A stretch of DNA of 63,042 bases, counting the filler, from Folioceros fuciformis (lineage: Eukaryota): assembly GCA_049999805.1 (NCBI GenBank). It is 6 parts of 6 records of this genome, joined end to end, with 100 filler letters (N's around TTAATTAATTAA, not from the genome) between each part and the next. Parts side by side here need not be neighbours in the genome. Positions count along the whole stretch, not along the records: positions 24,660 to 39,255 come from JBNGIO010005216.1; 5 more parts are not named here. One strand, 5' to 3'. The position numbers were made by a program, and so were the translations under genes. The notes below the pieces were generated by a model, which searched no databases, was not told where the DNA came from, and saw only the letters and a list, made by a program, of their open reading frames with translations. This document shows positions 1,827 to 57,281 of the stretch, piece after piece (the stretch's first letter is position 1; the number at the start of each line of letters is the position of its first letter).

Positions 1827-4800
1827 TAAAGGTTAATAATAATAGCTATTTATCCAGCATTACTTAATTACATAATAATTAGGGCAGATAGTAAATGGGT
1901 AGATTACAATCGACACAACTAAAGGGTTCCGACTCAAAACACAACAGTCACGCACTTTCACGGCCACGGGACACCACAACGGTTGGTCTCGTGACTATTT
2001 AAAGAGCCACATGGCTCTTCCTTAATCTATCCTTCTATTCTCTAATCTAGCTTGCCTGCTCTCTCCATCCTACAAGCTTTATGAAGCTCTTGAGACACTT
2101 CAAGGGGCACTTCAGCAGCTTTCAACAGTGATCACCACTCGTCCTAGAGCCACTGGAGACGATGTTCCTCTCTTTGTCCGCCCACCAGTTGCTGCTCTCT
2201 ACATGCTAACACTGACTCCAACTACCATGCCTCCAGCACAGGAGAATGGTGGATTAGTACCCCAGTGACATTGCCAATCTTCAAATTTCCACACCTTGTG
2301 CTTCCTTCGCCATTCTGTGGAGGCCATCAGAGGTAGATTTCAAGTGATGTGTGAGTGTGAGAGACGGTTAGTCTTACACGCTGGAGGAGTCTAGGTCTTC
2401 CCTTCTACCTTCAGCTGGAGGTGCAGGTAGTTATGTTAGTTAATTGTCATGGGACTTAGAATTAGGGTTCAGTTTCCTTTTGGAGTCAATCATGACCCAA
2501 CTTCCATTTTTACGTACCTTTTCAATTCTGGGCTGGCCTCCTCGCACCTCTTGATGTCACTGCTATGCTGAGATCTCCTACGGAGAGTGATAGTGATTCG
2601 GATGTCGATGTACTCTCTTGGCTCTACTATGTCTCCCCACCTGTGCCAGCTCTTGGTGTTGTCAATACGATGGCGGGTACTAATCCCCCACCACCTCCAC
2701 CTCCACCTAATCCACCTGTAAATGTTCAAGTGGGAAATTCATATTCTGGGGAGTTTAAGGAAAAGGACCGGTTTGATGGGAAGCCATCCCAATTTGAGAG
2801 TTCGAGAGCTCGTATGAAGGCCAATTTGAAGGCCCAAGATGTCTGGGAGTATGTCGATGGCTCCCTTCTTGATCCTGCCGCAACATTTCCACTAGGATCA
2901 GCAGATGAGATAGCAAAGTGGAAGAAGGGGAATAATGTCGCATTTGCAATTTTACTATCTGGCCTACACGAGTTCACAGTAGCTGAATTGAACTTCCTCG
3001 ACACAGTTGCAGTAGTCTGGGATCAGCTCACGCAGACAAGATGATGATATCAAGATCTTGGTGGCTGCTATACAGAACTTTTATGGATTAAGAATGAAGG
3101 AAGGGGACTCGATTGGAGCACACGTCACTCAAATGCGCACCCTACAGGCTTAGCTAGCCGCATTAGGGAGCAAGATGTCTGACTTGGATGCCACTGCTCA
3201 GCTCTTGACCAGCCTTCCATCATCTTACCAGACCTTTGTCTCCAGCCAGAACTCTACGTTGCGTGACTCCTACAAGGTTGTGGCTGCTGGTCATCGTGCT
3301 GCTGTCAACATTAATGAAGTGATTGGTGCTATCCTGCAAGAGGAGCAAAGCCAAAGCAATGGCAAGTCAGGCAATCGTCAACGAGGCGACAAGGTCCTCT
3401 ATGCTAAAGGTAAAGGCCCTTGGAAGGGGAAAGATAAGGGAGCGAAAAAGCAGCAATCCAGCGACTCAAGCTCATCTCCAAATTCTTCTAATAAATGATA
3501 AGGTACCTGCCACTGGTGCCAGATCCTAGGGCATTGGGAAAGAGACTGCCGTAAGAAGAAGGCTGGTGAGCCTAAGAGGGAGGCCAAGCATGAGGTTCAT
3601 GCTACTTCAAAGGAGAAGAAGTCCTCAGTTGGCTCCAACAATAACTCACAGCAACGCAGTAGGAGTGCTACAACTTTGACAGTTTGCCTATCGCTGTCCA
3701 AAGGTAGCTCTTTGCAGTGGTTTGTGGATTTAGGAGCCACGTCACACATCTACAACAATCGTGGACTCTTCTCAAAATTCCACAAACAGACATTACCGTA
3801 GTTAGTTTTTGTGGGTGATTCCAGAGGAGTACAGGTCAGAGATTCTGGTACAGTAGAATTAACTTTGCTAGAAGGGTCTTGTCTACTACTAGAGGATGTC
3901 ATGTTCGTCCCTGACATGAGCAAAAAACTGTTGTCAATTCGTAGTCAAATTATGGTTTTAGGTTTGAGAAGAATATCTGCTTTGTTTATCTTCTTTCTAA
4001 TCTTGATAGCCATGTTGCTAAAGCAGTGTTAGTAAACGACCTCTGCCAGCTTGTTACAATTCACAAGTCTAAGGCTAGAGCCCTACTTACTGCTTACAGA
4101 GCACAGGCTAATGTTTGGCACACCAAGTTAGGTCATGTCAACCGTGCTAAGCTGGACCTGATGGCTGATTCTTCGTGTTATCGAGAGAGTATGCCTTCTT
4201 GCTTTAAACATCTTGCATCCTGCAGCTCCTGTATCTTGTCAAAACAGAAAGAGCTTCCTTTTAAAAATTGGTTTGCTAATCGTGCTAAGCAAGTGCTAGA
4301 GCTTGTTCATGCAGACATAGCAGGAAAGCTACCTGTCAAATCGTTGGGTGGAGCAGAGTACTACCTGTCCCTTACATATGACTACTCAAGATATACATGA
4401 ACTTTCCCAATCAGGCAGAAGAGCGATGTGTTCGACACTATTTCCTCCTGGATCACCATGGTTCAATGACAGACTGGTCAGCTAGTTAAATGCTTTCGAA
4501 CCGACAATGGCAGTGAATTCACTGGACGGCAGTTTGATAATCTATTTGACTCCCTTGGCATTGTGAGACAGCAATCTGTGCCCTACACACCGTAGCAAAA
4601 CGATGTGGCAGAGCACAAAAATCATACTTTGATGGGAATGGTCAGGAGTATGTTGTCATGGGCAGCTTTTTCTAAGAAGTTCTGGGGAGAAGCCATAGTC
4701 TGCGCCACTTACATTTTAAATTGAGTTGTCACTTTTGCCCCTCCCGGCAAGATTCCCTATGAAGCCTTTTGGGGTCGAAAGCTGAGTCTTCCTCATCTGA

Positions 4801-7137
4801 AGGTTTTTGGGTCTCGTGCTTTTGCTTGTATCCCTAGGCCTAAAAGAAAGAAGTTAGATGCCAGATCTAAGCCTCTTATCTTCCTACGTTATTTAGAAGA
4901 GTCGAAAGCCTACAAGTTATATGATCTTACCACACCACGAATTACCTTGTCTCGGAGTGCCACATTTCTCGAATTTACCTCTCCTTGACCAGATTCGTTT
5001 GTAGATCAGTTGTATGCTGCAGATGCTCTTACCTCCTCCCCAGATGAAACTTCCCCTGGTGTGGACATAGATGACTTTGAGCTAGCTATTACTTACCCAG
5101 ATTCAGATGGTGAGGTCACGGTTCCTGATGCTCTGCTGGATGCTAATCCACTTCTACATGGGCCCTTACCAAATCCAGTAGGGGACGCTGCAAGTCAAGA
5201 TGACGACTCCCAGTCACAGCACTCTTCTATTGCTAGTGTTGATCCTCCTCCCAACTTGGCTGAGCCTGACTTGTTTGGTGTTGACGGTTTTGAGGATGAT
5301 TCTGCTGTAGAGGGAGCAGAGGGGGATGACCCTGAAGATGAAGTTCCCCCTCCACCAGATCCTCCTCGTTATCCTCCCAGAGAAAGGTGGTCAAGAGAAA
5401 ACTGAATTGAGCCTCCTTACCAATCAGTGGATTTTTGAAGACATGCAGCAAATGTGTTTGACCTTTATGTTCCTGACGTAAGGCCAGATCCTCAGACCTA
5501 CTCGAAGGCCATCAATGGCCTTGATGGTAAGCACTAGAGGATCTCTATCGATTATGAGTACACCTCACTTATCAAGAACAAGACTTGGGAGTTGGCTAAC
5601 CTGCCTCCTAGAAGAAGGCCAATCACGTGTAAGTGGGTGTTTAAAACAAAGTTGAAGGCAGATGGCACAATTGCGAGGTATAAATCACGTTTGGTTGCAA
5701 GAGGTTTTTCTCATATACCTGGCATTGACTATGGGGACACTTTTTCTCCGGTGGTTAAGCCTCCTTCTGTGCGTATCTTACTAGCCATGGCTGCTGAATT
5801 CGACCTTGAGCTTCACCAAATGGATGTGTGTACGGCCTTCTTACATGGTGAGCTTGAAGAGGTCCTTTACATGGAGCAGCCTAAAGGGTTTGTAGATAAG
5901 CGCTAGCCGAAGAAGGTGTGCAAGCTACTGAAGACCCTCTATGGTCTGAAGCAAAGTCCTCATGCCTGGTACAAATGCATTATGAATTTTTTAAGGAAAA
6001 ATGGCTTTGTGCAATCACATGCTAATAGCAATTTATCCTACCTTGCTTCTGAGGGTCTGTTTGTGATCTTGGCGCTGTATGTGAATGATGCCATCCTGCT
6101 CAGTAGCAACCCTCCTAAGCTTGATGAAGTAAAGGCTCTTCTCCGTTCAAAATTCAAGATGACCGATCAGGGCCCTTTGCGATTCTGCCTCGATATTTAG
6201 ATCTTGCACAATAGAGAACAAGGTACCATTATCCTGCATCAAACTAAATACGTAAAAGAGATCCTGAAGCGTTTCAGCTTGGATGCTGCCAAGTCAGTGT
6301 TGACACATTCTGCAGTAGGGGAGAAGCTTACTCGTGAGCAGTTACCTCTGAATGAAGCTGAGCAGAATGCTCTCAATGGTTCCTTATGCAGAACCTCTTG
6401 GGTGTTTAATTTTCCTGGCCAATTGGACTCGACCTGACATATCATATGTTGTTAGTGTAGTCTCCCAGTTTCTTAAGAATCCTGGCAAGCTCCACTGAGC
6501 AGCTGTAAAATGCATACACAGGTACTTGAAGGGGACCATTACCTTGGGGTTGCATTATACTTCCTTTGGCCAGCATGGCTTCACCTTGTCTGCTTTTACT
6601 GACGCCAACTGGGCATCCGATGTTGACTCCCGGAAGAGTCTCTCAGCATATGTGTTCTTACTTGCAAGTGGTGCTGTGAATTGGTCATACAAGAAGCAAA
6701 CGTCCTTGGCGTTGTCCTCAGTTGAGTATAAGGCCCTGACATACACATGCAAGGCGTTAGAGTGGGAAAGGAAGTTCTTGGATGCAATAAACTTACCTTA
6801 GTTTGGCCCTACTACTCTTTTATGTGATAATATGTCAGCTATAGCACTTGTATCATCACTACATTCGTGATGTGGCTGAAAGGGGCATGGTGCAAGTGCA
6901 ATATGTTAGTACGTATGAGAATACAGCTGATATTTTTACTAAGGGACTCTCAAAGGAGAAACATTACAAGCATCTGGCAGCTATGGGTTTGAGGGTTTTC
7001 ACCATCCCACCACCCAGTGCCCAGCCTACCTGGTTTGGAGTCCCAGGGCAGCAGTCTGCCCTAGCAGTCATTCTTCAATATGCTAGCCTAGGTTAGGACT
7101 GATTTCTTCTTTGCCCTGCACAGTACAAGTCGAGGTA

Positions 7138-7191
7138 TGGCACACTCAGTGGATGAAGCTAAAGTGCAGAATCAAGTCGTGAGTGGTGCCA
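7138..7191 (+). other. Conserved 3'-UTR stem-loop with GGATGAAGC core (copy 1 of 5)
   Basis: TGGCACACTCA / TGAGTGGTGCCA arms enclose GTGGATGAAGCT...AGTCG. Confidence 0.6.
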
Positions 7192-7205
7192 CAAGTCTTA
7201 CCTTT

Positions 7206-7758
7206 CTACACATGGCAATGCCTTGCTGTTGGAGGCCTGTAGACATAGCCAAGGTTCTCTAGTTCTCTTATCATTGCCTTGCACTCTTCAGAAGTTAGTA
7301 TTCAAGATTCCTCTGGGTTCTTAGGCTCATTTGCCGACATTTCCTACAGCTCGCGAGTGCGTGCCCTAGCAGTTGTGAGTAGGTTCTTCAGTTCGTCGCA
7401 CTTCTCCGGAGTCTTGTGCAAATGCCATAGTAGGTCTTTGTCAGCTGCAATCGGTCGTCCTATCTTGTCTACTTCAGAAGCCAATGCAGAGGGAGCTGTG
7501 GCGGCGGCGAGTTTGCTGTGGGGCGTCTTCATCCTGCTGGCGATGCTCTTGCTGACTACTTCTAGCTCCATTGATGCCTCGCCGCTTTCCGTAAGCTACT
7601 GAATTTCCTCCATCTCACGCTCTGCCACTAGCCTCTTCTGATTAGACAGACCACAGCTCCTTGAGCAAAAAATCCACCTTTGAAGCTAGAATCACGAGCA
7701 AGATGACTGCTGTGACTCCTGCCATAGCTGAGTTTGATATTTCAAGGGCGTTTGCCAT
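7206..7758 (-). pseudogene. Decayed antisense accessory ORF of copia family A (N-terminal hydrophobic helix, C-terminal helical domain)
   Basis: Translation MANALEISNSAMAGVTAVILLVILASKVD... (frameshift) ...RPIAADKDLLWHLHKTPEKCDELKNLLTTARARTREL*...ILTSEECKAMIRELENLGYV aligns by eye with ORF 34437-35060. Confidence 0.7.
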
Positions 7759-7870
7759 TACAGGGGCAATCTAAGCATCAGTCACAAGAGGGAGATGTTT
7801 GAGCTGGGCGCTCAAATGCAGCGTGCGCTTTTAAGGCTCTTTGTTTTAACCTCCGCAGGTTAAGAGGGAG

Positions 7871-23020: not shown

Positions 23021-23043
23021 GATACACTGTTCTTATTTATGCC

Positions 23044-23681: not shown

Positions 23682-23876
23682 TGTACACAATATAGCAATA
23701 TATGAAAACAACATCCTTGCAAGAAGAAAAGGAAGTGAATTAAACAAAGTACAACACATGAACACATATATAGTCTTGGCAGTTATAACCGCCTTTGAAG
23801 AGTGCCCTAATTCTTTAAAGGAGGCCCTAACTAATACTAGCACAATGTATATTAAATAGGACTTATTTTTCTAACA
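23682..23876 (-). repeat. 5' LTR of element 4
   Basis: Direct repeat of 17615-17809. Confidence 0.95.
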
Positions 23877-24659: not shown

Positions 24660-25310
24660 CCCCCGCTGTCTTGTTGTTGCCTGGTTAGGTTTGGCGCTTG
24701 CAGCGGCTACTTGCTTGCCTGCAGCCGGACAGGGCTGCCAGCTGCGTCTCGGACTGGCCGCTTCCTGCCCAGCCAGCCCCTGTCTAGCCCATCCTCAACG
24801 AGCCAGCAGACGTGCTGGCTGGCTAGATTCAGCTACCTTGCCACCACAACCTAGCCTGCCTAGAGCCGCCCTACGGTCACCCGGCTTGTTGAATCTTGCC
24901 TGGGCTTACAGCCACCGATCCATCCGCCCGTCAGGATCCATCCCAGCAACAGGCCGGCCCGCCTACCAGCCAGGATCCTCAGCCCCGGCCACCTGGCCGA
25001 AGGCTAGGACAGGCCTAGGCACCCTACCTCCATGCCTATGCCCAACTGCCTTCCGCATCCCGAGGCCCCAACTCACCCTCACACGCCCAACTTAGGGTTC
25101 CACACACGTGGCGTCCCTCTCCACGGGCACACCCTACCCCGTACTTCACATTTTCCACGGCCACGGGTTAGCTAGACGATTGTTGTCTTTCTAAACTGCA
25201 TCACCACTATCCCCTGATCATCCTATTTAATCTAGCCTTATCTAACATAGTTTCCTACTTACCTCTCCAAGGAATTCTATCAAAACTCCAAAAAAAACAA
25301 ATACCACCCA
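24660..25310. repeat. Second copy of the GC-rich repeat, with its downstream continuation
   Basis: GGATCCTCAGCCCC...GCCTATGCCCAAC...CCCTCACACGCCC.ACTTAGGG...CCCTCTCCACGGGCACAC shared with 13216-13380. Confidence 0.75.
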
Positions 25311-25710
25311 TTTTCTAAGAGGCTTATCTACCATGTGGTCTCCACACATCTTTATGACACAAACCTCTGCAACTCAACTGCTATGTGATAATATGTCTGC
25401 TATAGCCCTTGTGGCTAATCCACGATTCCATGCAAGGACAAAGCACATAGAGCTTTATCACCACTACATTAGGGACGTGGTGGAGAGAGGTGTGGCTAAG
25501 GTGGAGTATGTAAGCACAGATGAAAATACAACAAACCTACTGACTAAAGGGCTTTCTAAGGTCAAGCACTACAGGCATCTTACCTCTATGGGCTTAAGGG
25601 TGTTTGCTATGCCGGTACAAGAGAGTACAGCATAATGTGTGTTCTACTGACAGGAAGTGAATTAAGTGGTTTACTACAGGCCTGACCTTCCTGTCCAGCA
25701 CACAACCCAT

Positions 25711-25763
25711 GAGGATAGCTCAGTGGATGAAGCAACCTGCATATTCAGTCGTGAACTGTTCTC
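25711..25763 (+). other. Conserved 3'-UTR stem-loop with GGATGAAGC core (copy 2)
   Basis: GAGGATAGCTCA / TGAACTGTTCTC arms enclose GTGGATGAAGCA...AGTCG. Confidence 0.6.
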
Positions 25764-25834
25764 TACATCAACGAAAAGCAAAGAAAAGCAAAACTTCACA
25801 GCAGTGACTTACCTCTCTCAGGCAGACAAGGGAC

Positions 25835-26270
25835 TTAGTCATCACTAGCTTCAGGCACACCGCCGACTACTCCAGTATATCCCAGCATGTTCAGTTCCTT
25901 CACAAGATGCTGTATTTCACACTCTAATTGTGGAAACATGGTTGGATCCCGTGGTGGGAACTTGGCGACCAAGTCTCGAAGCTCCAAGACCCGACACTTT
26001 GTGGCCTTGATTGCTTCTTTGACCTCCTCGCACTTCTAAGCAGTCTGAAGCAGACGACACACCAAGTTCCTATCTGACTGTGTAGGCCACTCCACAGGCT
26101 TCTTCGATACTTGAGTCTTGCTAGGCTCAACAGAGTTACTATGCTGCTGTGACGACTCCTTCCTTGGATCCTTCTGACAACTCAAGCCGCAACCCTCTTG
26201 CGTGCCATTTCTTCCTGCACCAGAAGACGGAAGACTGAGAATTCCCTCTGCAGTGTGTGGTTGTTCTTAG
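25835..26270 (-). pseudogene. Decayed antisense accessory ORF of copia family A
   Basis: VEWPTQSDRNLVCRLLQTA*KCEEVKEAIKATKCRVLELRDLVAKFPPRDPTMFPQLECEIQHLVKELNMLGYTGVVG aligns with ORF 34437-35060. Confidence 0.75.
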
Positions 26271-26680
26271 CCCTGGTACCGCGAGAGCAAGGCACCACAA
26301 CCAATCTTCAGCTTGCCCTGAGTCTTCACGTCTATCCTTGTCTGAAGTTGGATCATCCGTCATGCTCCCTGCATGATTTTCACACTTGTGCCACACAACA
26401 ACTTCGCACGACTGCTTCATCATGAGGGGGTGACGGGGTTTATAGCCTGTTAGGGTTTAAGCACTTACTTTAACCTCGTAAGGTTAAGAGGGGGTGTTAA
26501 GGTTATTTAGATAACCATGGGTTAGATTAACCTAACTCGGTTAAACACGTGACTTTTGGGTTTAACAAACTTGACACTATAAAAGCTACAATTTTGTATT
26601 TATTGAATTAAATTCTTTTTGCTGCATTGTCTCAAGTATTCTTTGTCTAAATAATCCTTGAACAAATGCATAAAATAACA

Positions 26681-32208: not shown

Positions 32209-32418
32209 TGTTAAGATAACAAGCTCGATCACACTTAGGGTTGTATATATTTAATTTAGATTAAATATGTTTAGTTGAAGTGAAATAACATGACTCTAGG
32301 TCATGAGTATTTAAACACATCTTTGTAAACATTTTGTATTGTATTATTCATTTAGTTTTGGCAGCAACCGCTTGCACAACCTCCACATCTTGCACACCGT
32401 TCACATGGTATCAGAGCC
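32209..32418 (+). mobile_element. Orphan 5' LTR (about 32209-32405) and tRNA-iMet PBS of a truncated element
   Basis: AT-rich TG..CA segment followed directly by TGGTATCAGAGCC (32406-32418); left boundary approximate. Confidence 0.7.
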
Positions 32419-33092
32419 ATCCATTGGCCACACAAGATTTTAGAAAATGTCTAGGTGGGATGACATCCGAGAATTGCAAAGTTGAAGACGGGATGGAAGG
32501 GGAAATCGCTCCCGTGGGCGTTTTTCTCCCGGATCCCATAACTTTTTCAATAAAAAGCTGGATTCGATTTGAGGATGCGATCCCGACTACGAGGTTGAAG
32601 ATCTTGTTGGCTGCATAAGACACATGCGGTGTGGAGGCATGCATGCAGCAAGACTCGAACCCGCAACCACCTATTGAATGCATGGCTCTAAAACCACCAT
32701 AGCCCACTCGGCTGCTTGAAAGATATGTATCCTTGGAGATACTAGGCTTTATCACAGAGACTCAAGCATGGCTCCTGCGAGGATCTCTACCCCACCCCAC
32801 ACTACCTGTACAGCCTGCCATCCACACAGCCCCTTCTTCGAACGGTGGTTCCGGGTGATGGAGGAGTAGGAGATGACTAGGTGAGAGGTGCAGGAGGAGG
32901 CATTTCTTGTAGAATGCCGTGCTCGGTGGAATTGAGCCTTGGCAGAAGGTGGAGGACTTGGTGGCTGCCGAGTCGCGTGCAACACAGGTAGGAGCCCAGA
33001 TCAGCCAGGCACTACTTTTTTTGCTTGGAGATCTAATGCTGGGCACCACCAAAGATGGTGGTGCCTCATCCCCCTAGCTTTTTTGCTTCCGC

Positions 33093-34107
33093 TGTAGGGG
33101 GAGGCCGAGATTCGAACCGGCACATTCGATCTGGCCTAGGCATCGATCTTCGACGAGCGTGCTAGGATGCTCCCGTGACAGTTAGAAGGAGCGGCACACT
33201 GCTGGGATTTGGTGCGGTGCACGTGTTTTTTGGACTTGGCCTATGACAGTTAGGTTTATGCATCTGGTGCAGTAAGCTTGGTTTATGCATCTGGTGCGGC
33301 GGGCGTGGATGCTAATGCCACGAGCGTGGATCTGGTGCGGCGAGCGTGGATGCTGGTGTGGTGCGTGTGGATCATAGGTGGTAGTTGAAGGATTGCTAGA
33401 GGAGCCACATGGTGAAAGAGGAGAGGAGGAAGCAAGGAGGAGAAGAGAATGAGAGGTCTCACACTCTCACAATGTCTCTATTGCAAGGGAGCTCAAGGGG
33501 GTATTTATACCCTCAAGAAGAGCTCCCAAGGAAGTTGCGCAAGAAGCTTCCTATAGATTAGCTTAAGCTAATCTAAACATATGATACTTAACTAGACATT
33601 AATCTTAGACTAAACACATTAGTTTAAACCACATTGGGCTTTAATAACCCTACAACCTCCCACTTAAAGACCAATTTACCTTCATAGGAGAGTGGTCTAC
33701 CTCATGCCTATGAGTGTCTGAGCTTGTGCGAATTGCTTTGAAGAGAGCCACTTAGAAAGAATATCTACGGGGTTCTGACTAGTGTGAACTTTGACAAGTT
33801 GTACCCTCTTGTCTTCCAACAGCTCTCGAATGAAGTGACACTTCACTTCCACATGTTTGGTCTTTGCATGAAACACTAGATTCTTTGCCAATTGGATAGC
33901 ACTCTGGCTATCACAATGCAACACTGGCAGCTCAACCTTGATCCCCAAGTCTCCCACTAAATGAGCAAGCCACATGGCTTCCTTGCAAGCCTTAGTCACT
34001 GCAACATACTTAGCCTCTGTGGTATATAGCGTTATGCACGATTGCAAACGAGATTGCCATGAGATTGCCCCTCCCGTGCACATGAAGACATAACTTGATG
34101 TGGACCT
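33093..34107 (-). mobile_element. 3' remnant of a different (Tork/Tnt1-like) copia: RNase H 33697-34107, PPT and about 560-bp LTR 33093-33654
   Basis: GGAISWQSRLQSCITL.TTEAKYVA..ACKEAMWL, LHCDSQSAI; LTR termini TGTAGGG...CCCTACA; TATAAATA near 33500; short GGTGCGGCGAGCGTGGAT tandem repeats. Confidence 0.75.
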
Positions 34108-34436
34108 TGACACGAATTAAAGAACACACACAAACATGTACTCAACAGAATGATTGATTAAATTAATGAACAAAATTGTGTCTTATATATTGTGTTAAAT
34201 ATAAACCCTAATGTGAGGTTAACTAACCAAGAGTAACAAACTCTAACACCCCCTCTTAACCGAACAGGTTAACGGAACGGGGTTCTTAAATAAAACGGGG
34301 TCATAGGGTTACGCTCCCGTCATCGCTGTGGTCTTCAGGCGTAAAGGCCTAAACAGGCAAGCGGAGCGTGAGTGACTGTTGAGCTGAAAACCGAACGATC
34401 TCGAGCGTAAGCGAGGAGAATGAGAGCCGTCTAGCT

Positions 34437-35060
34437 GTGCGGGAAGCCATGGAGATAAATACTGAGCTTGCGCTCACAGTCCTATGTGTCGTCATAGCTA
34501 CCAGCATCGCCACAGGCTGCAAGGTGGAGGCTTGGCGCAAGCAAAACCGAGCTATCAAAGATGGCGTTGCTGCCACCGCCAAGGTTGGGTCAGACCCGTT
34601 CCTGAACAGAATGGTCAACCCCAGCCCGTATAGTGCTGTAGACAGAGCTCGGCACCCGGATGGCTGGCCTACTCAGGCAGACCGCAACTTGGTAGGACAC
34701 TTGTCACTGACGCTGAAGAAGATGGAGGAGCTCGACGGCATCCTGCAGTCTGCTAAGTTGAGATCGATAGAGCTGGAAGACTTGTGCAGGACGATCCCTC
34801 CTCATGAGCTAAGAATGTTCCCACTCACGGTGCCTGAGATAAAGGCCATGGTCGGCGAGTTGGAGAAGATGGGGTTCGTAGGCACCCTAGGAGACATCGG
34901 GCCTGGTGTAGGTCCCACGTACAACCCATATCCACATCACCACCTGCAGGGCCTCCTGTTGGACCAACTTGGCATCCAGAGTCACCATCTCAGTCTGGTA
35001 AGCAGCTCAGCAGTATGTTTGTTTGAAGGGATCACAGAACCAGCTCACGACAAGATGTGA
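34437..35060 (+). CDS. Intact antisense accessory ORF (about 203-207 aa) of copia family A: N-terminal TM-like helix and conserved helical domain
   Basis: Hydrophobic LALTVLCVVIATSIATG; WPTQADRNLV...ELEKMGFVG domain conserved in two other elements; ATG at 34449. Confidence 0.75.
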   Translation: MREAMEINTELALTVLCVVIATSIATGCKVEAWRKQNRAIKDGVAATAKVGSDPFLNRMVNPSPYSAVDRARHPDGWPTQADRNLVGHLSLTLKKMEELDGILQSAKLRSIELEDLCRTIPPHELRMFPLTVPEIKAMVGELEKMGFVGTLGDIGPGVGPTYNPYPHHHLQGLLLDQLGIQSHHLSLVSSSAVCLFEGITEPAHDKM

Positions 35061-35092
35061 CGTGACAGCTTCATCCACTGAATTGGGTCTGT
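35034..35092 (-). other. Conserved 3'-UTR stem-loop with GGATGAAGC core (copy 3)
   Basis: ACAGACCCAATTCA / TGAGCTGGTTCTGT arms enclose GTGGATGAAGCT...TGTCG. Confidence 0.6.
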
Positions 35093-35474
35093 TTAAATGT
35101 GCAGGAGAGGAGAGCACACCGAAGCTTTTCATGGAGGGCTTTGACGCCTAGGAGGCAGCAAGATAATAATCCTGTAGAAGACCTCCTTCCTAGGTCAGGC
35201 GTCCATGTTAAGAGCTAACAGGAGTAGGTAGCACAAACTCCCAAAGCCCTAAAGCTTCCATGTGCTTGTAGTGCTTGGAAGCAGACAGTCCCTTGGTGAG
35301 AACGTCTGCTGTATTAGCATCAGTGTTTATGTACTGAACTATTGCAATTCCTCTTTTTGCCACATCTCTTATATAATGGTGATAAAGCTCAATGTGTTTT
35401 GTGCGTGCATGGAATCTGGGGTTGGCCACCATAGCTATTGTAGACATATTGTCACAGTACAGCTGTGTAGCACC

Positions 35475-35687
35475 TATTGACGCGCAGTCGTTTTTACACA
35501 CACGCCAGTAAACTTGAGTTTTAGGGCACGTTTTGCTAGGGCTGATATAAGAAAACAGTTTAAGCAGTTTAAGTAGTTTTATTAAAACAGTTATATAGCA
35601 GCAGTTACGAATCGCTTTATGTAAGCCTATATAAGGGCACTTAATACCCCTTTCTAATATGAGATTATTACTATTACCGTATCTACA
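35475..35687. mobile_element. Solo LTR (213 bp) inside the RNase H of element 9
   Basis: TSD GCACC at 35470-35474 and 35688-35692; termini TA..CA; host reads HMTQPGA|TQLYCDNMS when removed. Confidence 0.8.
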
Positions 35688-38600
35688 GCACCTGGTTGGG
35701 TCATGTGGACAGAGTCGAGAAACTGCCTTTCCCACTCCAACTCCTTACATGCATCAGTCAAAGCTTTGTACTCAGCTTCTGTGGATGAAAGTGCTAAAGA
35801 CGTTTGCCTTTTACATGACCAGTTAACAGCCCCAGAAGCAAGAAGGCACACATAGGCAGAGAGGCTGCGACAAGTATCTGAGTCGGAAGCCCAATCTGTG
35901 TCTGCAAAAGCTGTAAGTAGGAAGTCTCGATTTCCACTGGAAGTATAATGCAAGCCATAGGTTATGGTGCCCTTTAAATAACGATAGATACGCTTGACAG
36001 CTGCCCAGTGCGAAGGCCCAGGGTTCTTCAGAAATTGAGCAACAACACTGACAACAAAGCTGATGTCTGGACGGGTCCAATTGGCCAGAAAAATCAGGCA
36101 CCCAACAGCTTCAGCATATGGAACACTAGACATATGATCTTCCTCCTCTGCTGTGCAAGGTGACTGATCGGCTGTGAGCTTCTCACCAACGACACAAGGA
36201 GTAGACATAGGACGAGCCTCATGTAAGTGAAAGCGTTTTAAGATCTCCTTAAGATACTTGGTTTGATGTAAGATAACAGTGCCCTGACTTCTGTCCCGCA
36301 AAATCTGTATGCCCAGACAGAACTGAAGAGGGCCTTGATCTGTCATTTCAAACTCGCTGCGAAGGAGGGCCTTAACCTTGTCGAGCTGGACCAAACTGTT
36401 GCTCAGAAGTATGGCATCATCAACATAAAGGGCCAGCACTATGAACAAGCCTCCCTCAGATAAGTAAAAGACATTACTGTCAGCAGGAGACTGCAGAAAG
36501 CCTGACTTCATAAGGAACCTTCATAATACGCTTGAACCATGCTCGTGGGCTTTGCTTCAAGCCATATATTGTCTTAAGCAATGTACAAACCTTGTTGGGC
36601 CACTGCTTGCTAACGAAGCCCTCGGGCTGCTCCATGTACAGAACCTCCTCTAGCTCACCATGAAGAAATGCTGTACAGACATCCATCTGGTGAAGTTCTA
36701 AGTCGAGTTCTACTACCAGGGCAAGAAGGATGCGAACTGAAGGAGGTTTCACAACTGGTGAAAAGGTGTCACCGTAGTCGATGCCAGGTATCTGTGAGAA
36801 CCCCCTCGCAACAAGTATGCTCTTGTAACAAGCTATTGTTCCATCCGCTTTTAACTTGGTTTTAAATACCCACTTGCAGGTAATAGGCTTCCTGCCCGGC
36901 GGGAGATCAGCAAGTTCCCAGGTGTGATTCTTGATAAGGCTGTTGTACTCATCATCAATAGAGATACGCCAATGAGCACCATCAGGCCCATTCAAGGCTT
37001 CGTCATAAGACTGAGGATCAGGCCTTATGTCAGGAACATGTAGGTCAGTAACATGAGCTGCTGGCCTTCTAAAGTCGATTGATTGGTAAGGAGCCTCCAC
37101 CCACTAATCTCTTGGCCTCCTTTCTCGTGTAGGGTATCGAGGTGAATCAGGAGCCTGGACTACTGGAAGGTCAGCAGGTGCTTCCTGCTGAACATCATCA
37201 TCACTGAGAGCACCAGCTGACCCAGCATCATGATCCGAGAAGAAACCAAGGTCATCATCAGTCACCTCCTATGCAGGGTCAACAGCAACTGCATCCTGAA
37301 CAGGTGGAGCATCCCCCTCGTACGCAGCATCAAGTAGCTTGTAGGCTTTTGACTCTTCTGAGTAACCTACAAACACTAAACGCTTGGCCCTGTTTTCTTA
37401 CTTATTGCGTTTGACTTCAGATATGTACGCATATGCAGGAGACCCAAAAACACGTAAGTGCTTCAAACTAGGCTTTCTACCCCGAAATGCTTCATAGGGA
37501 GTTTTGTTAGGTACAGCTGATGTGACCAAACGATTGTGTATGTAGGTAGCAGCCACCACTGCCTCCACTTTGGCAAAGAGGCCCAAGACAGCATGCTCCT
37601 AGTCATTCCCATCAACGTCTGGTTCTTTCATTCAGCAACTCCATTCTGTTGCTGCGTATAAGGAACAGAGAGCTGCCTTGTGATTCCATACTGCTCAAAG
37701 AGATCATCAAGGTTATGACCTGTAAACTCCCCTCCGTTATCGTTTCTAAAACACTTGACCAACTTTTCAGTCTGTTTCTGAACCATGGGGATCCATTTGG
37801 AGATCAGTTCATAGACATCACTCTTCAGCTTGAGCAGAAAGGTCCAAGTGTATCTGGAGTAGTCATCAGTCAAGGACAAATAATATTTAGCGCCACCCAA
37901 GCTCTTAACAGGTAACTTTCCTGCTATGTCTGCATGTATAAGCTCCAGAATTTCTTTAGCACGTGTTGGCTCTTTATTTCTGAAGGGCAGCTCCTTTTGT
38001 TTTGACAGAATGCAAGGAGCACATGTCGACAAATGCTTGAAACAGCTAGGCAACTTTTCTCGATAGAAGTTTGAGTTGGACATGAGGTCTAACTTAAATC
38101 TGTTCACATGCCCAAGCCTAGCATGCCAAAGGTTAGCCTGAACATTAAAAGCAGCAAATAGCGCTCTAGCCTTGGACTTAGCAACTGTAACTAGTTGATA
38201 CAAGTCATTTACTAGAATGGCCTTTGCTATGTGCTTATCAGGGTGTGACAGGTGATACATATAGCATTTGCTGTCCTCAAAACGGAACCCATACAACTTA
38301 CTATGTGCAATGGCTCTTATGGACAATAGATTTTTACTCATGGCTGGAACATACAACACATCTTCCAGATGCAAGGTGCTGCCGTCTAACAAAGGTATGT
38401 TAACGACACCCACCCCTTTTACCTCAACACCACGAGAGTCGCCAACAAACACCGATTGTGGCATTGTCTGTTTGTGAAATGTTGAGAAGAGCTGACGAGT
38501 ATTGCACACATGCGCAGTAGCTCCAGGATCAAGAAACCAATGGTTGAAGTGCTCACGACAAGAGGTAAGACAAACAGTTAGAACTGAACTACTGCTCTTG

Positions 38601-39255
38601 TGTGCTGGGTTCGTATGCTGACCAGCCTTAGCTGCCACGTGAGCTTCAGGTTTGGATTCCCGCTTCGGCTCACCTTGTTTCTTCTTCCGGCAGTCCCTTT
38701 CCCAGTGACCCGAAATACCACACCAGTTGCAATTACCCTGGCGTTTAGTGGAGCCAGAAGAGGTACTCTTGTTCTATCCACTGTTTGTATTGGTTGAATT
38801 GTTGCTGCTGGGCTTCTTCTTACTGTCTTTCCCCCTCCAAGGGCCTTTTCCTCTTGCAGCAAAAAGGACCTTGTCACCTTGAAGGCGTGAAGAAGAACCA
38901 GTCTTGCGACTCTGCTCTTCCTCGAGAAGGGTGCCAATCACCTCATTGAAATTGATGGTAGAAGGTTTCCCAGCAGCGACAGCAGCATATGAGTCCCTGA
39001 GAGATGCATTCTGGCTAGACACAAATGTCTGATAGGAAGGAGGAAGGCTGGCAATGAGCTGAGCTGTCATGTCCACCTCAGAGACTTTACAGTTGAGCCC
39101 AGACCACTGCGCTCTCAAGTAACACAGCTTGTTCAAATGGGCTCCAATAGGTTCACCATCCTTTAGACGCAAAGCATGAAACTGATTCCAAACAGCTACC
39201 AGAGTAAGGATATTTTGTACTTGGTACGTGTCCACAAGTTGTTTCCATGCAGCTG

Positions 39256-49278: not shown

Positions 49279-50790
49279 ATGAAGAATGAGACTTGGGAGT
49301 TATGCCCGTTACCTGCTGGCCGTAAGGCTGTGAGCTGCAAATGGGTTTTCAAACATAAACTTAATGCACATGGACAGATTGCACGTCACAAATCTCGTTT
49401 GGTAGCACGTGGTTTCTCACAAGTTGCTGGCGTTGATTTTAATGAAACATTTAGCCCTGTAGTCAAAACGCAATCTATTAGAATGATTCTAGCTTTGGCT
49501 GCTGCACGAGATTGGGACCTAGAGCAGATGGATGTATCTACTGCATTTCTCTACGGGGAATTAGAAGAAGAAATATATTTGGTCCAACCTGAAGGCTTTG
49601 AGGATCGCGAGCACCCTGACTGGGTCTGCAAGCTGAAGAAAACTCTGTATGGGCTCAAACAAAGTGCCCGTGAGTGGTATAAATGTATAGACAAATACCT
49701 GAGATCAATTGGTTTCCTTCAAAATCCTGCAGATGCTAACGTCTACATGTATACCAAAGGTGGGCATATCGTCATCCTGGCTCTCTACGTAGATGATGCC
49801 ATCCTCGCGTCAAACAACAAAGAGATACTGGAGTGGGTAAAGGCAATGCTACATAAGGAATACGACATGAAGGACATTGGACAACTTACATTTGCCCTAG
49901 GTGTCCAGTTGCTTAGGGACAGGGCCAATAGAACCCTTGTCTTCCATCAAACAAAATATATCAATGAGACCTTACGTCGTTTCAACCTAGATCAAGCCAA
50001 ACTAGTCAGTACCCCTGGCAGCATTGGAGTCAAGCTTACTTCTGACCAATCCCCCCATGATGAGCATGAGAAGGCAGCTATGTCTGAAGTCCCTTATCGT
50101 CACGTTGTGGGCTGCTTAAACTACATAAGTTGTTGGACTAGGCCTGACATCCAGCATGCTGTTAGCTGCGTGTCTCAGTTCCTGGAAAACCCAGGTAAGG
50201 AGCACTGGGGAGCAGTGAAGCGCATCCTAGGATATTTAAGAGGAACTTCAACCTATGGATTATGCTTTAGAGGGAAAGGACAAGATATCACCTTGGTGGG
50301 CTATGCTGATGTAGACTGGGCTACTAATCCTGAGAGCCGTCGAAGTCTCTCAGCATACTGCTTCTTCCTTTCAGATGTTGTGGTAAACTGGAGCTCTAAG
50401 AGACAATCGTTAGTTGCTCTCTCATCTACGGAGGCTGAGTATAAAGCCCTTACAGCCTCAGCCAAGGAGGCCAAGTGGGAAAGGACATTCCTTGCTGCCT
50501 TGTCCTTCAAGCAACCTGCACCCACTGCCATATACTGTGATAATCAATCGACAATAGCCCTGGTAGGAAACCCTCGATTTCATGCCCGGACTAAGCACAT
50601 AGAAATCCAGCACCATTTTGTGCGTCATTTTGTTGAAAGGAAATTTGTCAAGGTCGAGTACATCCCTACTGACCTCAACACGGTAGACCTGCTTACTAAA
50701 ATTCTGCCTACTACTAAGCACAACTTTCACATGGAAGCTATGGGTCTCATCAACTACTTAGCTGTAATCCCTTCCAGCTCTGAACAGTGA
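49279..50790 (+). CDS. Copia RT-RNase H of element 10 (503 aa open stretch)
   Basis: KSRLVARGF, QMDVSTAFLYG, LYVDD, SSTEAEY, CDNQS, TKHIEIQHHF. Confidence 0.95.
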   Translation: MKNETWELCPLPAGRKAVSCKWVFKHKLNAHGQIARHKSRLVARGFSQVAGVDFNETFSPVVKTQSIRMILALAAARDWDLEQMDVSTAFLYGELEEEIYLVQPEGFEDREHPDWVCKLKKTLYGLKQSAREWYKCIDKYLRSIGFLQNPADANVYMYTKGGHIVILALYVDDAILASNNKEILEWVKAMLHKEYDMKDIGQLTFALGVQLLRDRANRTLVFHQTKYINETLRRFNLDQAKLVSTPGSIGVKLTSDQSPHDEHEKAAMSEVPYRHVVGCLNYISCWTRPDIQHAVSCVSQFLENPGKEHWGAVKRILGYLRGTSTYGLCFRGKGQDITLVGYADVDWATNPESRRSLSAYCFFLSDVVVNWSSKRQSLVALSSTEAEYKALTASAKEAKWERTFLAALSFKQPAPTAIYCDNQSTIALVGNPRFHARTKHIEIQHHFVRHFVERKFVKVEYIPTDLNTVDLLTKILPTTKHNFHMEAMGLINYLAVIPSSSEQ

Positions 50791-50883
50791 TGTGCAGAAG
50801 CTAGATGTTACAGAACCTGCATACAGACTAAGTTTTTCAGTTAGCAGGTCTAGATAGGTGTTTGTTTTTCATAAACAAATCAA

Positions 50884-50933
50884 CAGACAGTGGCGGATGA
50901 AGCTAACCATCCACATCCAATCACCACTTGCTG
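50884..50933 (+). other. Conserved 3'-UTR stem-loop with GGATGAAGC core (copy 4)
   Basis: AGTGG / CCACT arms enclose CGGATGAAGCT...CATCCAATCA. Confidence 0.55.
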
Positions 50934-51290
50934 CTGCTACTAATCTGGGATGTCAGCTGCATCGCCTGCTTGCCGTCTCCGTGCCCATTTTTTGCTCTTG
51001 TTGCCAGTATTTGGTCATGAGGAATGCTGCTATTGCAAGCGCGCAAGCGGACAACACCAAGTGGAGCATGCTCGTCATCTTCGGGCTATGCCTACTGCAT
51101 TACTTTGTCGTGTCGTGGTTAAGAGGGTGTGTTGAACCCGGTTAGGGTCCCCTGATAACCATGTCACTTGGACTTTAATTAAACATATAAGTTAGGTCAA
51201 GTAACCAACCCCAAGAATGAAAAGTCACTTAGTTATTTACGATTTTGTACTTAAAGACTTTTTCCTTTAATTAAATGTATTGTTGTTTCA

Positions 51291-54964: not shown

Positions 54965-57281
54965 CTCCACACTAACCATGATCGCTCGTTATATAAACAT
55001 AATCCTACGGGGACTATCTTAACACACCCCCTTAACCACGACATTGGTTAGGAGATAGGCGTTAAACGCAACTAAAGACAAGGACACGAAGGTGCGAAAA
55101 TGGCTGGCACACTTGGTTGCAGCTGCAAAGCTGCCCTTGCTAGAGGACAAGTAATTCCGGCTGATTAGATAGAGCAGTCGAGCTTCATCCGGCCAGACAG
55201 TCCAAATATCACTCCACGCTAACACTGTAGAGAAGAGCTGGGCAGGTAGGAGTTGTAGGCTACCAAGCCCAAGGCTTCTGTATGAAAATCGTGCTTGAGC
55301 GTAGGTAGACTTTTTGTGAGGACGTCTGCCATATTTAGCTCTGTAGGGATATGCTCAATGCTAACCACCTTCCACTGCACTGAGTGCCTCACAAAGTGAT
55401 GGTGGATTTCTATGTGCTTCGTGCATGCATGGAAGCGGGGATTCCCAACCAGGGCAATAGTGGACATGTTGTCACAATAGATGGTGGTAGGGATCTTCTA
55501 TGGAAAGTTTAAGCCAGCAAGGAAAGTGCGTTCCCACTCGGCCTCTTTTGCTAAATCTGTTAGTGCTTTATATTCCGCTTCCATTGAGGAGAGTGCTACT
55601 AAGACCTGTTTCTTTGAGCTCCAGTTGATAGCTGCTCCAGACAGGAGGAAGCAATAAGCAGAGATGCTGCATCTTTGATCTGAATCTGTCGCCCAGTCCG
55701 CATCACAATAACCCTGCAAGCTAACAGTCTCATTTGTGCCTCGGAAGCAGAGTCCAAGTGTGGAAGTACTCTTAAGGTAACGCACAATTCTTTTGACTGC
55801 AACCCAGTGAGTATGGCCTGGATCTTCAAGGAATTGTGAAACAGCACTGATCGAGTGCTGAATGTCTGACCGTGTCCAACAACTAATGTAGTTGAGGCAC
55901 CCAACAGCGTGCCTATAGGGCACCATGCTCATAAGCTCACGATCAACCTCATCTTGAGGGCTCTGCATAGAGGTAAGTTTCAAACCAACGCTGCCGAGAG
56001 TGCTTACTGACTTTGCATCCTGCAGATTAAGTCTTTGGAGAGTCTCACCAATGTACTTGGTCTGGTGCAGGATGAGAGTATGATTAGTCATGTCACGGAT
56101 GAGCTGCACACCTAAAACAAAGGTAAGAGAACCGATATCCTTCATGTCATAGCGCTTGTGGAGCATCCCTTTTACCCAGTCTAACAACTCCTAATTGTTT
56201 GATGCAAAGATCGCGTCATCGACATAAAGAGCCAAGATAACCATGTATCCTCCTTTGTTGTAGACGTAGACGTTTGCATCTGCAGGGTTTTGGATGAACC
56301 CAATAGATTTCAAGTATTTGTCAATTCACTTGTACCATTCTCATGCACTCTATTTGAGGCCGTACAACGTCTTCTTAAGCTTGCAGACCCAAGTAGGATG
56401 CTCAGGGTCCACAAAGCTTTTAGGCTGTTCCATGTACATGTCTTCCTCGAGATCCCCGTAGAGGAAAGCCGTTGAAACATTCATTTGTTCCAAGTCCCAG
56501 TCCCTTGCTGCAGCCAGGGCCAGCATCATGCGGATCGATTGCGTTTTCACAACAGGGCTGAAAGTTTCATGGAAGTCCACTCCAACCACTTGAGAAAAAC
56601 CTCGGGCTACAAGACGACTCTTGTACCTAGCAATCTCTCCTTGTGCATTCAGCTTATGTTTGAAGATCCATTTACAGCTCACAGCTTTGCGTCTAGCAGG
56701 TAAAGGACACAGTTCCCATGTTTCATTCTTCATGAGGGAATAGTATTCATCTTGAATGGAAGGGATCCAGTGATGCTTGTCCTTGCCGTTTATAGCCTCC
56801 TTATATGAGCGTGGTTCAGCAGGGTGAACAGTGCTGGTGGAGAAGGCCTCACAGAGTCGAGCTGAACGAGGCTACCAAAAATCTTCAGGTTGATAAGGTC
56901 GTTCACTCCATTGATCTAGTGGAGGACGCAACCTGATGGGGTATCTTCGTGCTTCCACAACAGGTTCGAGAACAGGAGATGCAGTCACAGCTGGTTCAGG
57001 CTCCAGATAAGTGAGAACCTATTCAGCAGCCTGCTCATGTTCATAAATAGGTGAGAGGGATTGATCTCTGAAATCTAAATGCTGAACGTGCTCAAAATCA
57101 TCCACTGCAGGATCAGCTGTTGGTATATCAGCTTGAGAAGTTGCATCATCTGTCTCATCTACACCAGGTGTAGCATCACTAATCTGTTCTACAGGTAAGT
57201 GTGCAACTGGCTGAACAACTAACTGATGTCGAGCTGAGGTTGGCTGTGACTGTGAGTCAATAGTATGGGCAGGTGATGGAG
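54965..57281 (-). mobile_element. Ty1/copia element 14 (family B), 3' part: RT-RNase H 55219-56800, PPT, truncated LTR with its 5' terminus at 55024
   Basis: RT very similar to element 10 (VVKTQSIRM.LALAAARDWDLEQM, CLNYISCWTR). Confidence 0.92.
55156..55197 (-). other. Conserved 3'-UTR stem-loop with GGATGAAGC core (copy 5)
   Basis: TCTGGC / GCCGGA arms enclose CGGATGAAGCT...TATCTAATCA. Confidence 0.55.

What the first reader, a model, noticed from the sequence alone, without database searches (positions are those of the whole stretch)
34437..35060. Conserved antisense accessory gene in a Ty1/copia family: predicted membrane anchor plus conserved helical domain
Seen: three family-A elements on two contigs carry an opposite-strand ORF between the pol stop and the PPT. 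The C-terminal ~75 aa align with at most a 1-aa indel although the DNA is divergent: WPTQADRNLVGHLSLTLKKMEELDGILQSAKLRSIELEDL..PP...MFPLTVPEIKAMVGELEKMGFVG (here); WPTQSDRNLVCRLLQTA*KCEEVKEAIKATKCRVLELRDL..PP...MFPQLECEIQHLVKELNMLGYTG (25835-26089); RPIAADKDLLWHLHKTPEKCDELKNLLTTARARTREL*...LTSEECKAMIRELENLGYV (7206-7460). This copy is fully open while its own gag-pol is frameshifted. Known: 3' antisense ORFs are described mainly in Ty3/gypsy Tat-clade elements (Grande, RIRE2, Retand), and the copia env-like ORF of SIRE is sense. Inference: a selected, separately expressed accessory protein (membrane-associated movement or env-like factor, or anti-silencing factor), possibly undescribed.
Basis: partly seen in the sequence, partly recalled or inferred. 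Interest (0 to 1): 0.85.

Follow-up and report, generated by a model that had tools for sequence, protein, structure and literature searches.

The report
Backward accessory gene in copia retrotransposons
Three related copia-type jumping genes in a plant-lineage genome carry a small extra gene written backwards between their polymerase gene and their end repeat; its protein sequence has been kept by selection, which is known for gypsy-type elements but was not found described for copia-type ones.

Summary
The 207-codon frame at 34437-35060 (+) lies opposite a frameshifted copia gag-pol, between the pol stop (35208) and the polypurine tract (34249-34261). Two diverged copies sit at the same place in two other elements (25838-26122 and 7218-7490, both -). 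A gapless 73-codon block is 27-42% identical in protein while the DNA is only 42-55% identical. Codon-position identity runs pos2 > pos1 > pos3 (.56-.64 / .45-.56 / .25-.44). Re-dealing the same base changes never reaches the observed protein score in this frame (0 of 2000 per pair, z 5.4-5.7); the other five frames give z 3.5 or less. This is a protein-coding accessory gene of one copia clade. Two sister elements with the same polypurine motif have spacers of only 181 and 326 nt and lack it. The conserved part is a two-helix domain with no detectable relative in any library searched. The membrane anchor is in frame only here, out of frame in one copy and absent in the third. The last ~50 residues of this copy are not conserved. 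Expression and function are untested. I file it as a copia counterpart of the antisense extra ORFs of Ty3/gypsy Tat/Retand elements: a new variant of a known kind.

The parts
34437..35060 (+). Antisense extra ORF of copy c3, 207 codons, first ATG at 34449 (GCCATGG context), stop TGA at 35058-35060
34461..34520 (+). Hydrophobic segment, residues 9-28 (best 19-residue Kyte-Doolittle mean 1.93), followed by K/R-rich stretch
   Evidence: controls
34662..34880 (+). Conserved 73-codon core (WPTQxDRNL ... ELExxGF/Y), predicted long helix plus short helix
34881..35060 (+). Non-conserved C-terminal extension of this copy; the other two copies stop 12-19 codons after the core
35068..35081 (.). Exact 14-nt box GCTTCATCCACTGA shared by all three copies, with TCACGAC 14-16 nt away; role unknown
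35208..39235 (-). gag-pol of copy c3 (copia type), at least 4 frame changes; 5' end cut by the contig end
34249..34261 (-). Polypurine tract GGTTAAGAGGGGG of c3
34108..34248 (-). 3' LTR of c3, 141 bp, TG..CA, with TATATAAG; abuts an RNase H piece of another, very abundant copia
25838..26266 (-). Copy c2 of the antisense ORF: 143 codons with one TAG and no in-frame ATG; conserved domain at 25838-26122
25720..25733 (-). 14-nt box of c2
25246..25635 (+). RNase H end of the 5'-truncated element c2
26482..26494 (+). Polypurine tract of c2; LTR starts at 26495
7209..7595 (-). Copy c1 of the antisense ORF: ATGGAG start as in c3, two stops inside; conserved domain at 7218-7490
7642..7758 (-). c1: ATG-led 38-codon frame with a strongly hydrophobic segment (Kyte-Doolittle 2.21), upstream of and out of frame with the domain
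7146..7159 (-). 14-nt box of c1
2565..7096 (+). gag-pol of element c1 (degenerate)
7858..7870 (+). Polypurine tract of c1; LTR starts at 7871
50788..51133 (+). Sister copia element: pol stop to the same polypurine motif, spacer 326 nt, no antisense-ORF homologue and no box
55021..55221 (-). Second sister element: pol stop to the polypurine motif, spacer 181 nt, no homologue

Best explanation
A clade of Ty1/copia retrotransposons in a streptophyte genome carries a cassette of about 500-750 nt between the pol stop and the polypurine tract. It encodes, on the opposite strand, a small protein of roughly 130-200 residues. Shown: the cassette sits at the same place in three elements whose pol proteins are 61-73% identical. 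Its C-terminal ~75 residues have evolved under purifying selection on the antisense reading frame, at about the rate of gag. Inferred: the gene is transcribed on its own from a promoter in the ~200-nt stretch next to the polypurine tract or in the 141-bp 3' LTR read backwards, because the sense genomic RNA cannot encode it. Inferred: the conserved domain is a long amphipathic helix followed by a loop and a short helix. My best guess for the mechanism (about 0.25) is a trans-acting helper or regulator of the element's own cycle. It would be held at a membrane by an N-terminal anchor, with the helical domain in the cytosol contacting an element or host protein. The confidence of 0.7 given here is for the gene being real and selected, not for this mechanism.
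For: Three copies at E 1.8e-16 and 2.4e-9; tblastx gives 8e-19 and 1.7e-12 in the antisense frame only, and every other frame pair has E >= 0.009. Codon-position identity in the 73-codon block is .56/.64/.44.48/.63/.32 and .45/.56/.25; positions 1+2 against 3 give p = .021.0008 and .0002. Nei-Gojobori pN is .38-.49 against pS .69-.87, and dN/dS is about 0.28 for the one pair that is not saturated. Re-dealing the same base changes gives 0 of 2000 per pair reaching the observed score in this frame, z 5.4-5.7. The wobble-sharing sense frame gives z 0.8, 2.9 and 3.5, and the other four frames give z <= 0.5. Replacements are more conservative in the antisense reading (mean BLOSUM -0.33 to -0.49) than in that sense frame (-0.80 to -1.47). 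Calibration between c3 and c1: pol is 63% identical over 1039 codons with position identity .71/.80/.41, and gag segments are 45-48% identical. Clade-specific gain: two sister elements share the polypurine motif but have 326- and 181-nt spacers with no homologue. The AlphaFold model of the domain has a helix at residues 15-54 with block pLDDT 80-94 and a second helix at 67-79. c3 and c1 both start with ATGGAG in a good context.
Against: Only three copies were available, and only one is intact: c2 has one stop and no in-frame ATG, and c1 has two stops. All three host elements are dead. The alignment was found by protein similarity, so the codon statistics carry some ascertainment bias. There is no RNA or protein evidence of any kind. 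The N-terminal region is not significantly conserved. Differences between this copy and near-identical copies in the source sample fall 4/5/5 on codon positions 1/2/3 and include a frameshifting insertion; that is neutral decay after insertion, which is expected but gives no support. No homologue or fold match exists to anchor a function.
Confidence: 0.7

Rival explanations
1. The conservation is a by-product of constraint on the sense strand: a sense-coded peptide in the frame that shares its wobble position with the antisense frame, or an RNA structure in the 3' untranslated region of the genomic RNA.
For: The wobble-sharing sense frame also exceeds its null in two of three pairs, z 2.9 and 3.5. 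Short exact DNA motifs nearby show that nucleotide-level constraint exists in this spacer.
Against: That sense frame scores 42-51 against 77-142 for the antisense frame. It has 2, 2 and 1 stops in 72 codons and reads as serine-rich low-complexity sequence. Its replacements are less conservative. Its position identity would run pos1 > pos2, unlike pol. An RNA structure would not leave every third base free.
Confidence: 0.06
2. The cassette is a captured piece of a host gene or of another mobile element that was once selected but now rides along passively without a role in the element.
For: Capture is a known source of extra ORFs (PMC7264820, passages read). The sister elements lack the cassette, so it was gained once. 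None of the three copies sits in an intact element.
Against: Selection on the protein continued while the three lineages diverged to saturation at silent sites, which means it acted during the element's own spread. No cellular homologue was found among 1.84 billion representative proteins or in Pfam, although land-plant proteomes are in those collections.
Confidence: 0.1
3. The working product is the antisense RNA itself (double-stranded RNA and small-RNA trigger, or copy-number control as for Ty1 antisense RNAs), and the open frame is secondary.
For: Antisense transcripts with regulatory roles are discussed for LTR elements (PMC7264820 passages; PMC11624286 passage). Conserved short DNA motifs at the end of the cassette could be processing signals.
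Against: An RNA-only function does not predict the codon-phase pattern, the conservative replacements or the z 5.4-5.7 signal confined to one frame. The two roles could coexist.
Confidence: 0.07
4. Chance open frame and chance similarity, or an assembly artefact.
For: The window is a string of short repeat contigs, and the 207-codon length of this copy is partly fortuitous.
Against: E-values of 1e-9 to 1e-19. The same order pol end - box - ORF - polypurine tract - LTR appears three times on two contigs. Independent contigs of two DNA runs cover the ORF at about 97% identity.
Confidence: 0.02

Closest known systems
Antisense extra ORFs between pol and 3' LTR (aORF-3R) of Ty3/gypsy elements: maize Grande gene23, rice RIRE2, Silene Retand, the bean ORF2 families including pvRetro13
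   Same: Place (pol stop to 3' LTR), opposite orientation, conserved within a lineage, no database relatives, function unknown, presumed own promoter (PMC7264820 passages; PMC4093653 passages).
   Different: Those are all Ty3/gypsy (pvRetro13 is listed as Ty3-gypsy), and the bean ORF2s are 211-939 aa. This one is in Ty1/copia and its conserved protein is about 130-160 aa. I could not compare sequences directly. Pfam reported no family above threshold for the three copies, so none of the families the REXdb paper names for gypsy extra ORFs appeared.
Env-like extra ORF of SIRE-clade Ty1/copia elements (eORF-3'F)
   Same: An extra ORF in a copia element between pol and the 3' LTR; fast-evolving (PMC6317226 passages).
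   Different: SIRE ORFs are in the sense orientation and were scored at 250 codons or more. Here the ORF is antisense and shorter, so that survey's length filter would have missed it.
Retroviral antisense genes (HTLV-1 HBZ, HIV-1 ASP)
   Same: A gene at the 3' end read backwards. The HTLV antisense promoter in the 3' LTR is cited in PMC7264820. HBZ as a coiled-coil protein and ASP as a hydrophobic one are recalled, not from a call.
   Different: No sequence relation. The only hint is a non-significant profile match to Fos leucine zippers (E 0.15-0.39). No basic DNA-binding region is visible.
sORF2 / FAST-like small transmembrane proteins of Drosophila MDG1-group Ty3/gypsy elements
   Same: A small accessory protein with one hydrophobic helix, basic residues after it and an amphipathic cytosolic tail (PMC11952523 passages).
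   Different: Those are all in forward orientation, 63-107 aa, mostly with an N-terminal MGxxxS/T motif and an ectodomain of about 30 residues, and occur in insects. Here the ORF is antisense and longer, has no such motif, has only about 8 residues before the hydrophobic segment, and that segment is not shown to be conserved.

Membership tests
Ty1/copia LTR retrotransposon (the host elements) | copia-type gag and RVT_2-type reverse transcriptase | tested here: met
   The c3 and c1 gag frames match PF14223. All 120 listed relatives of the c3 RT/RNase H frame carry PF07727.
Ty1/copia LTR retrotransposon (the host elements) | polypurine tract followed by an LTR starting TG and ending CA | tested here: met
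   GGTTAAGAGGG(G/A)G|TGTT is present in all three copies. The c3 LTR is 34248-34108, TG..CA. No 5' LTR lies within the contigs.
Antisense extra ORF between pol and 3' LTR (aORF-3R class, as used in PMC7264820) | lies between pol and the 3' LTR | tested here: met
   3 of 3 copies.
Antisense extra ORF between pol and 3' LTR (aORF-3R class, as used in PMC7264820) | opposite orientation to gag-pol | tested here: met
   3 of 3 copies.
Antisense extra ORF between pol and 3' LTR (aORF-3R class, as used in PMC7264820) | present in all or most copies of the family rather than in one transduced copy | tested here: met
   Present in 3 of 3 clade members in the window, intact in 1 of 3. A fourth, more diverged member in the sample shows a matching 28-nt patch.
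Antisense extra ORF between pol and 3' LTR (aORF-3R class, as used in PMC7264820) | own antisense transcript | not testable with these tools
   No RNA run holds the stretch.
SIRE env-like ORF | sense orientation downstream of pol | tested here: not met
   The ORF is antisense.
sORF2 / FAST-like | forward orientation, 63-107 aa, N-myristoylation motif MGxxxS/T, transmembrane helix | tested here: not met
   Antisense, 203 aa from the first ATG, starts MEINTE; the hydrophobic helix is in frame in c3 only. Criteria taken from PMC11952523 passages.
bZIP (HBZ/Fos-like) | basic region plus leucine zipper recognised by a profile | tested here: not met
   No Pfam family for the c3 ORF at E <= 10. PDB profile matches to Fos have E 0.15-0.39.
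copia gag-derived duplicate | profile similarity to the elements' own gag | tested here: not met
   hhalign of the domain against six gag sequences of the window gives probability 0.07%, E 0.68.

The most novel reading that the evidence does not exclude
A plant-lineage copia clade has acquired its own antisense-encoded, membrane-anchored two-helix accessory protein. Its architecture recalls retroviral Vpu or the FAST-like sORF2 proteins: a short N-terminus, one transmembrane helix, and cytosolic helices. It would act at membranes, for instance to move particles between cells or to divert a host restriction or silencing factor. That would be the first accessory gene of this kind in Ty1/copia. 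The exact 14-nt box beside it would be part of its expression signals.
Probability: 0.12. Interest if true: 0.8.

Novelty: new variant of a known kind. Interest (0 to 1): 0.5.

Why it matters
Antisense extra ORFs are a recognised but unexplained feature of Ty3/gypsy elements. The copia superfamily is described as structurally uniform, with only the sense env-like ORF of SIRE set apart (PMC6317226 passages). A copia clade with a selected antisense gene shows that this genome layout arose independently in the other superfamily. It also shows that surveys using long-ORF cut-offs (250 codons) miss such genes. Finally, it offers a compact case (a conserved domain of about 75 residues, sister elements without it) in which the function of an antisense retrotransposon gene could be worked out.

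Tried and rejected
- **Homology searches, none gave a relative.**
  - Pfam: no family for the c3 ORF; two sub-threshold chance hits for the other copies.
  - Word-indexed search of 5.8 billion proteins: 195 candidates, none at E <= 0.01.
  - Profile search of 1.84 billion representatives: one hit, E 2.8e-6. It is a 946-aa repeat protein matching only profile positions 108-136 in three stretches, which I judge a motif coincidence.
  - ESM Atlas, twice: no usable hit.
  - PDB sequences: best E 0.098.
  - Foldseek on the domain model: 4 matches at E <= 10, none at E <= 0.001.
  - hhalign against the elements' own gag: E 0.68.
- **More copies elsewhere.**
  - Metagenome contigs: 260 pattern matches, none confirmed.
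  - Viral contigs: 94 pattern matches, none confirmed.
  - Box-pattern scan of metagenomes: one hit, L001, a contig with long frames of bacterial type and no copia; I take it as chance.
  - No whole genome is held for this window.
  - Earlier findings of the scan: nothing relevant.
- **Expression.** No RNA holder is listed. The one run guessed to be RNA laid a single contig on pol and none on the ORF.
- **Self-association.** The complex job for two copies of the domain gave no verdict.
- **Full-length fold.** The model of the whole ORF was poor, pLDDT 51.
- **Selection from near-identical copies.** Differences fall 4/5/5 over the codon positions. This reflects decay after insertion and cannot test selection.
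- **N-terminal homology between c3 and c1.** Not significant, p about 0.12.
- **RNA structure for the box region.** Weak: -9.4 kcal/mol with a positive covariation term.
- **Conserved sense splice donor near the end of gag that could pair with the box region.** Candidates in c3 and c1 lie 18 nt apart in an unalignable linker; nothing can be concluded.

Full report
**What the window is.** The 63-kb window is six contigs joined by N-TTAATTAATTAA-N spacers: 1-10837, 10938-24559, 24660-39255, 39356-52422, 52523-57281 and 57382-63042. It is packed with Ty1/copia elements. No whole genome is held for it. One non-repeat gene piece, a 534-codon MET1/DNMT1-type frame at 9135-10739 (-), is 50-53% identical to land-plant MET1 proteins from lycophyte, Ginkgo, fern and liverwort. 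The host is therefore a streptophyte with no close relative in the protein collection.

**The observation.** ORF 34437-35060 (+) is open for 207 codons, with its first ATG at 34449. It lies antisense to a copia gag-pol at 35208-39235 (-). That gag-pol is split into five ORFs with at least four frame changes.
- On the element's sense strand the order is: pol stop (35208), 127 nt, an exact 14-nt box (35081-35068), the ORF region, about 190 nt, the polypurine tract GGTTAAGAGGGGG (34261-34249), and a 141-bp LTR TG..CA (34248-34108). The LTR abuts an RNase H piece of another copia.
- tblastn finds two more copies: 26122-25856 (E 1.8e-16, one stop) and 7460-7242 (E 2.4e-9, two stops). A profile of the domain finds the same three and no fourth.
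- Both extra copies lie between an RNase H end and the same polypurine/LTR junction motif.

**Is it more than chance, and in which frame?** Over a gapless 73-codon block the DNA is 42-55% identical and the protein 27-42% identical (20-31 of 73).
- Codon-position identity is .56/.64/.44.48/.63/.32 and .45/.56/.25 for the three pairs. Positions 1+2 against 3 give p = .021.0008 and .0002.
- Nei-Gojobori pN is .38-.49 against pS .69-.87. dN/dS is about 0.28 for the only pair whose silent sites are not saturated. Four of the other five frames give pN/pS near or above 1; the sense frame that shares the wobble position (pS .51-.83) also keeps pN below pS.
- I re-dealt the same base changes over the block at random. 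The observed BLOSUM score in the antisense frame was reached 0 times in 2000 in each pair (z 5.4, 5.7, 5.4). The sense frame that shares the wobble position gave z 0.8, 2.9 and 3.5, and the other four frames gave z <= 0.5.
- That sense frame has stops in all three copies and reads as serine-rich sequence. Its replacements are less conservative, mean BLOSUM -0.8 to -1.5 against -0.3 to -0.5.
- tblastx over the whole spacer finds only this domain, in this frame.
Caveats: there are three sequences, and the alignment was found through protein similarity.

**Calibration.** Between c3 and c1, pol is 63% identical over 1039 codons, with position identity .71/.80/.41. The gag segments are 45-48% identical. 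The three elements are old relatives with nearly saturated silent sites, and the antisense domain (38-40%) has evolved at roughly the pace of gag.

**Distribution.**
- c1, c2 and c3 are each other's nearest relatives in the window: RT/RNase H 61-73% and RNase H end 64-66% identical to c3.
- The next nearest elements (pol ends at 50790 and 55219; 53-57%) have the same polypurine motif. Their spacers are only 326 and 181 nt, with no homologue of the ORF and no 14-nt box. The spacers in the three carriers are 946, 846 and 761 nt.
- The cassette was therefore most simply gained once in the ancestor of this clade (a loss in the sister elements is not excluded), and the box came or stayed with it.
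- In the source sample, contigs of two DNA runs cover the ORF at about 97% identity. One 1256-nt contig matches the pol end at 82% and then only a 28-nt patch inside the domain, so more diverged members exist.

**The protein.**
- *Conserved part.* Only the C-terminal domain is conserved: W-P-T-Q-x-D-(R/K)-(N/D)-L ... K-(M/C)-(E/D)-E ... R-x-x-E-L ... P-P ... E-(I/C)-(K/Q)-x-(M/L)-(V/I)-x-E-L-x-x-(M/L)-G-(F/Y).
- *Predicted fold.* AlphaFold on the 95-residue domain gives a 40-residue helix (block pLDDT 80-94), a loop and a 13-residue helix, with mean pLDDT 72. The full-length model is poor, pLDDT 51.
- *C-terminal tail.* The 53 residues after the domain in this copy are not shared. The other two copies stop 12 and 19 codons after it. 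The conserved protein is nearer 130-160 residues than 207.
- *Hydrophobic segment.* In c3 it covers residues 9-28 (Kyte-Doolittle 1.93), is followed by K/R-rich sequence, and is in frame. c1 has an ATG-led frame with an even more hydrophobic segment (2.21) upstream, but out of frame with its domain. c2 has nothing comparable and no in-frame ATG.
- *Test of the anchor.* The c3 and c1 N-termini are not significantly similar (p about 0.12). 14% of random 400-nt stretches of the window give a segment this hydrophobic. The anchor is possible but not established.
- *No relatives.* No relative or fold match turned up in Pfam, 5.8 billion and 1.84 billion protein collections, the ESM Atlas, PDB sequences, Foldseek/PDB, or the elements' own gag.

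**How it most likely works.**
- *Shown:* a protein-coding frame on the strand opposite the genomic RNA, kept by selection in one copia clade.
- *Inferred:* it needs its own transcript, starting in the ~200 nt next to the polypurine tract or in the LTR read backwards. TATA-like runs are present there in c3 and c2, but that is weak evidence.
- *Inferred, about 0.25:* an N-terminally anchored protein whose cytosolic helical domain binds an element or host protein and helps or tunes the element's cycle.
- I could test none of this. No RNA run holds the stretch.

**Unexplained.** In DNA that is otherwise near saturation, all three copies keep several motifs between the ORF end and the pol stop. In antisense orientation they read GGTAAG, then TCACGAC, 14-16 nt, the exact box GCTTCATCCACTGA, about 25 nt, and TGTGC(A/T)GG.
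- Read on the sense strand, the box region gives W-M-K-L-x-x-(H/R)-I-x-S-stop in c3 and c1, with third-position differences. It is preceded by a pyrimidine tract plus CAG. This looks like a 3' splice site with a terminal mini-exon, of the kind Drosophila copia uses for its spliced RNA (recalled, not from a call).
- Read on the antisense strand, the motifs look like a donor and an acceptor.
- The predicted hairpin is weak. RNA data are needed to decide.

**Comparison with what is known.**
- The review of extra ORFs in plant LTR retrotransposons (PMC7264820, passages) names antisense ORFs between pol and the 3' LTR in Grande, RIRE2, Retand, PvRetro13 and fungal Boty, function unknown.
- The bean paper lists pvRetro13 and the other 14 ORF2 families as Ty3-gypsy; its two copia families carry sense env-like ORFs (PMC4093653, passages).
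- The REXdb survey (PMC6317226, passages) screened only extra ORFs of 250 codons or more. It found them in 582 copia elements in 45 groups and singles out only the sense ORF of SIRE for copia. Its per-lineage tables are in supplements I could not open.
- Eight full-text searches found no paper describing an antisense ORF in a copia element.
- Small transmembrane accessory proteins of Drosophila gypsy-type elements (PMC11952523, passages) are all in forward orientation.
- I therefore file this as a copia counterpart of the gypsy antisense extra ORFs: a new variant of a known kind, not a member of any named protein family.

**Verdict.** My confidence that this is a real, selected protein-coding accessory gene is about 0.7. 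The proposed mode of action is a guess.

Noticed in passing
35068-35081, 25720-25733, 7146-7159 and flanks: An exact 14-nt box with TCACGAC 14-16 nt away, plus GGTAAG and TGTGC(A/T)GG, is kept in all three carriers and absent from the sister elements. It could be a sense-strand 3' splice site with a 10-codon terminal exon, or processing signals of the antisense RNA.
   Followed up: partly
9135-10739 (-): A 534-codon open frame with DNMT1-RFD and BAH domains, 50-53% identical to land-plant MET1. It lies next to the c1 element in a GC-richer stretch and places the host among streptophytes.
   Followed up: partly
17615-23876 (-): A seemingly intact copia of another family: 195-bp LTRs 98.5% identical and a 1343-aa polyprotein. 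Its ~800-nt spacer between the pol stop and the 3' LTR holds stop-free antisense frames of 190 and 172 codons, with no similarity to the ORF studied here and no Pfam match.
   Followed up: partly
34249-34275, 26470-26494, 7848-7870: The polypurine tract is preceded by TTAACCT and starts with GGTTAA. This inverted repeat could fold over the start of the tract, and it is conserved in all three carriers.
   Followed up: no
34000-34173: The RNase H piece of another copia, into which c3 is inserted, has word depth of 2,400-18,600 in two DNA runs. The antisense ORF has depth 20-70. So this is a far more abundant family.
   Followed up: no
runs laid on 34000-36600: One DNA run of the same sample shows mostly C>T and G>A differences (145 and 112 places), as a bisulfite-converted library would.
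   Followed up: no
13214-13380 and 24971-25132: A GC-rich 169-nt stretch, 80% identical, is shared between two contigs, in both cases beside a copia RNase H end.
   Followed up: no
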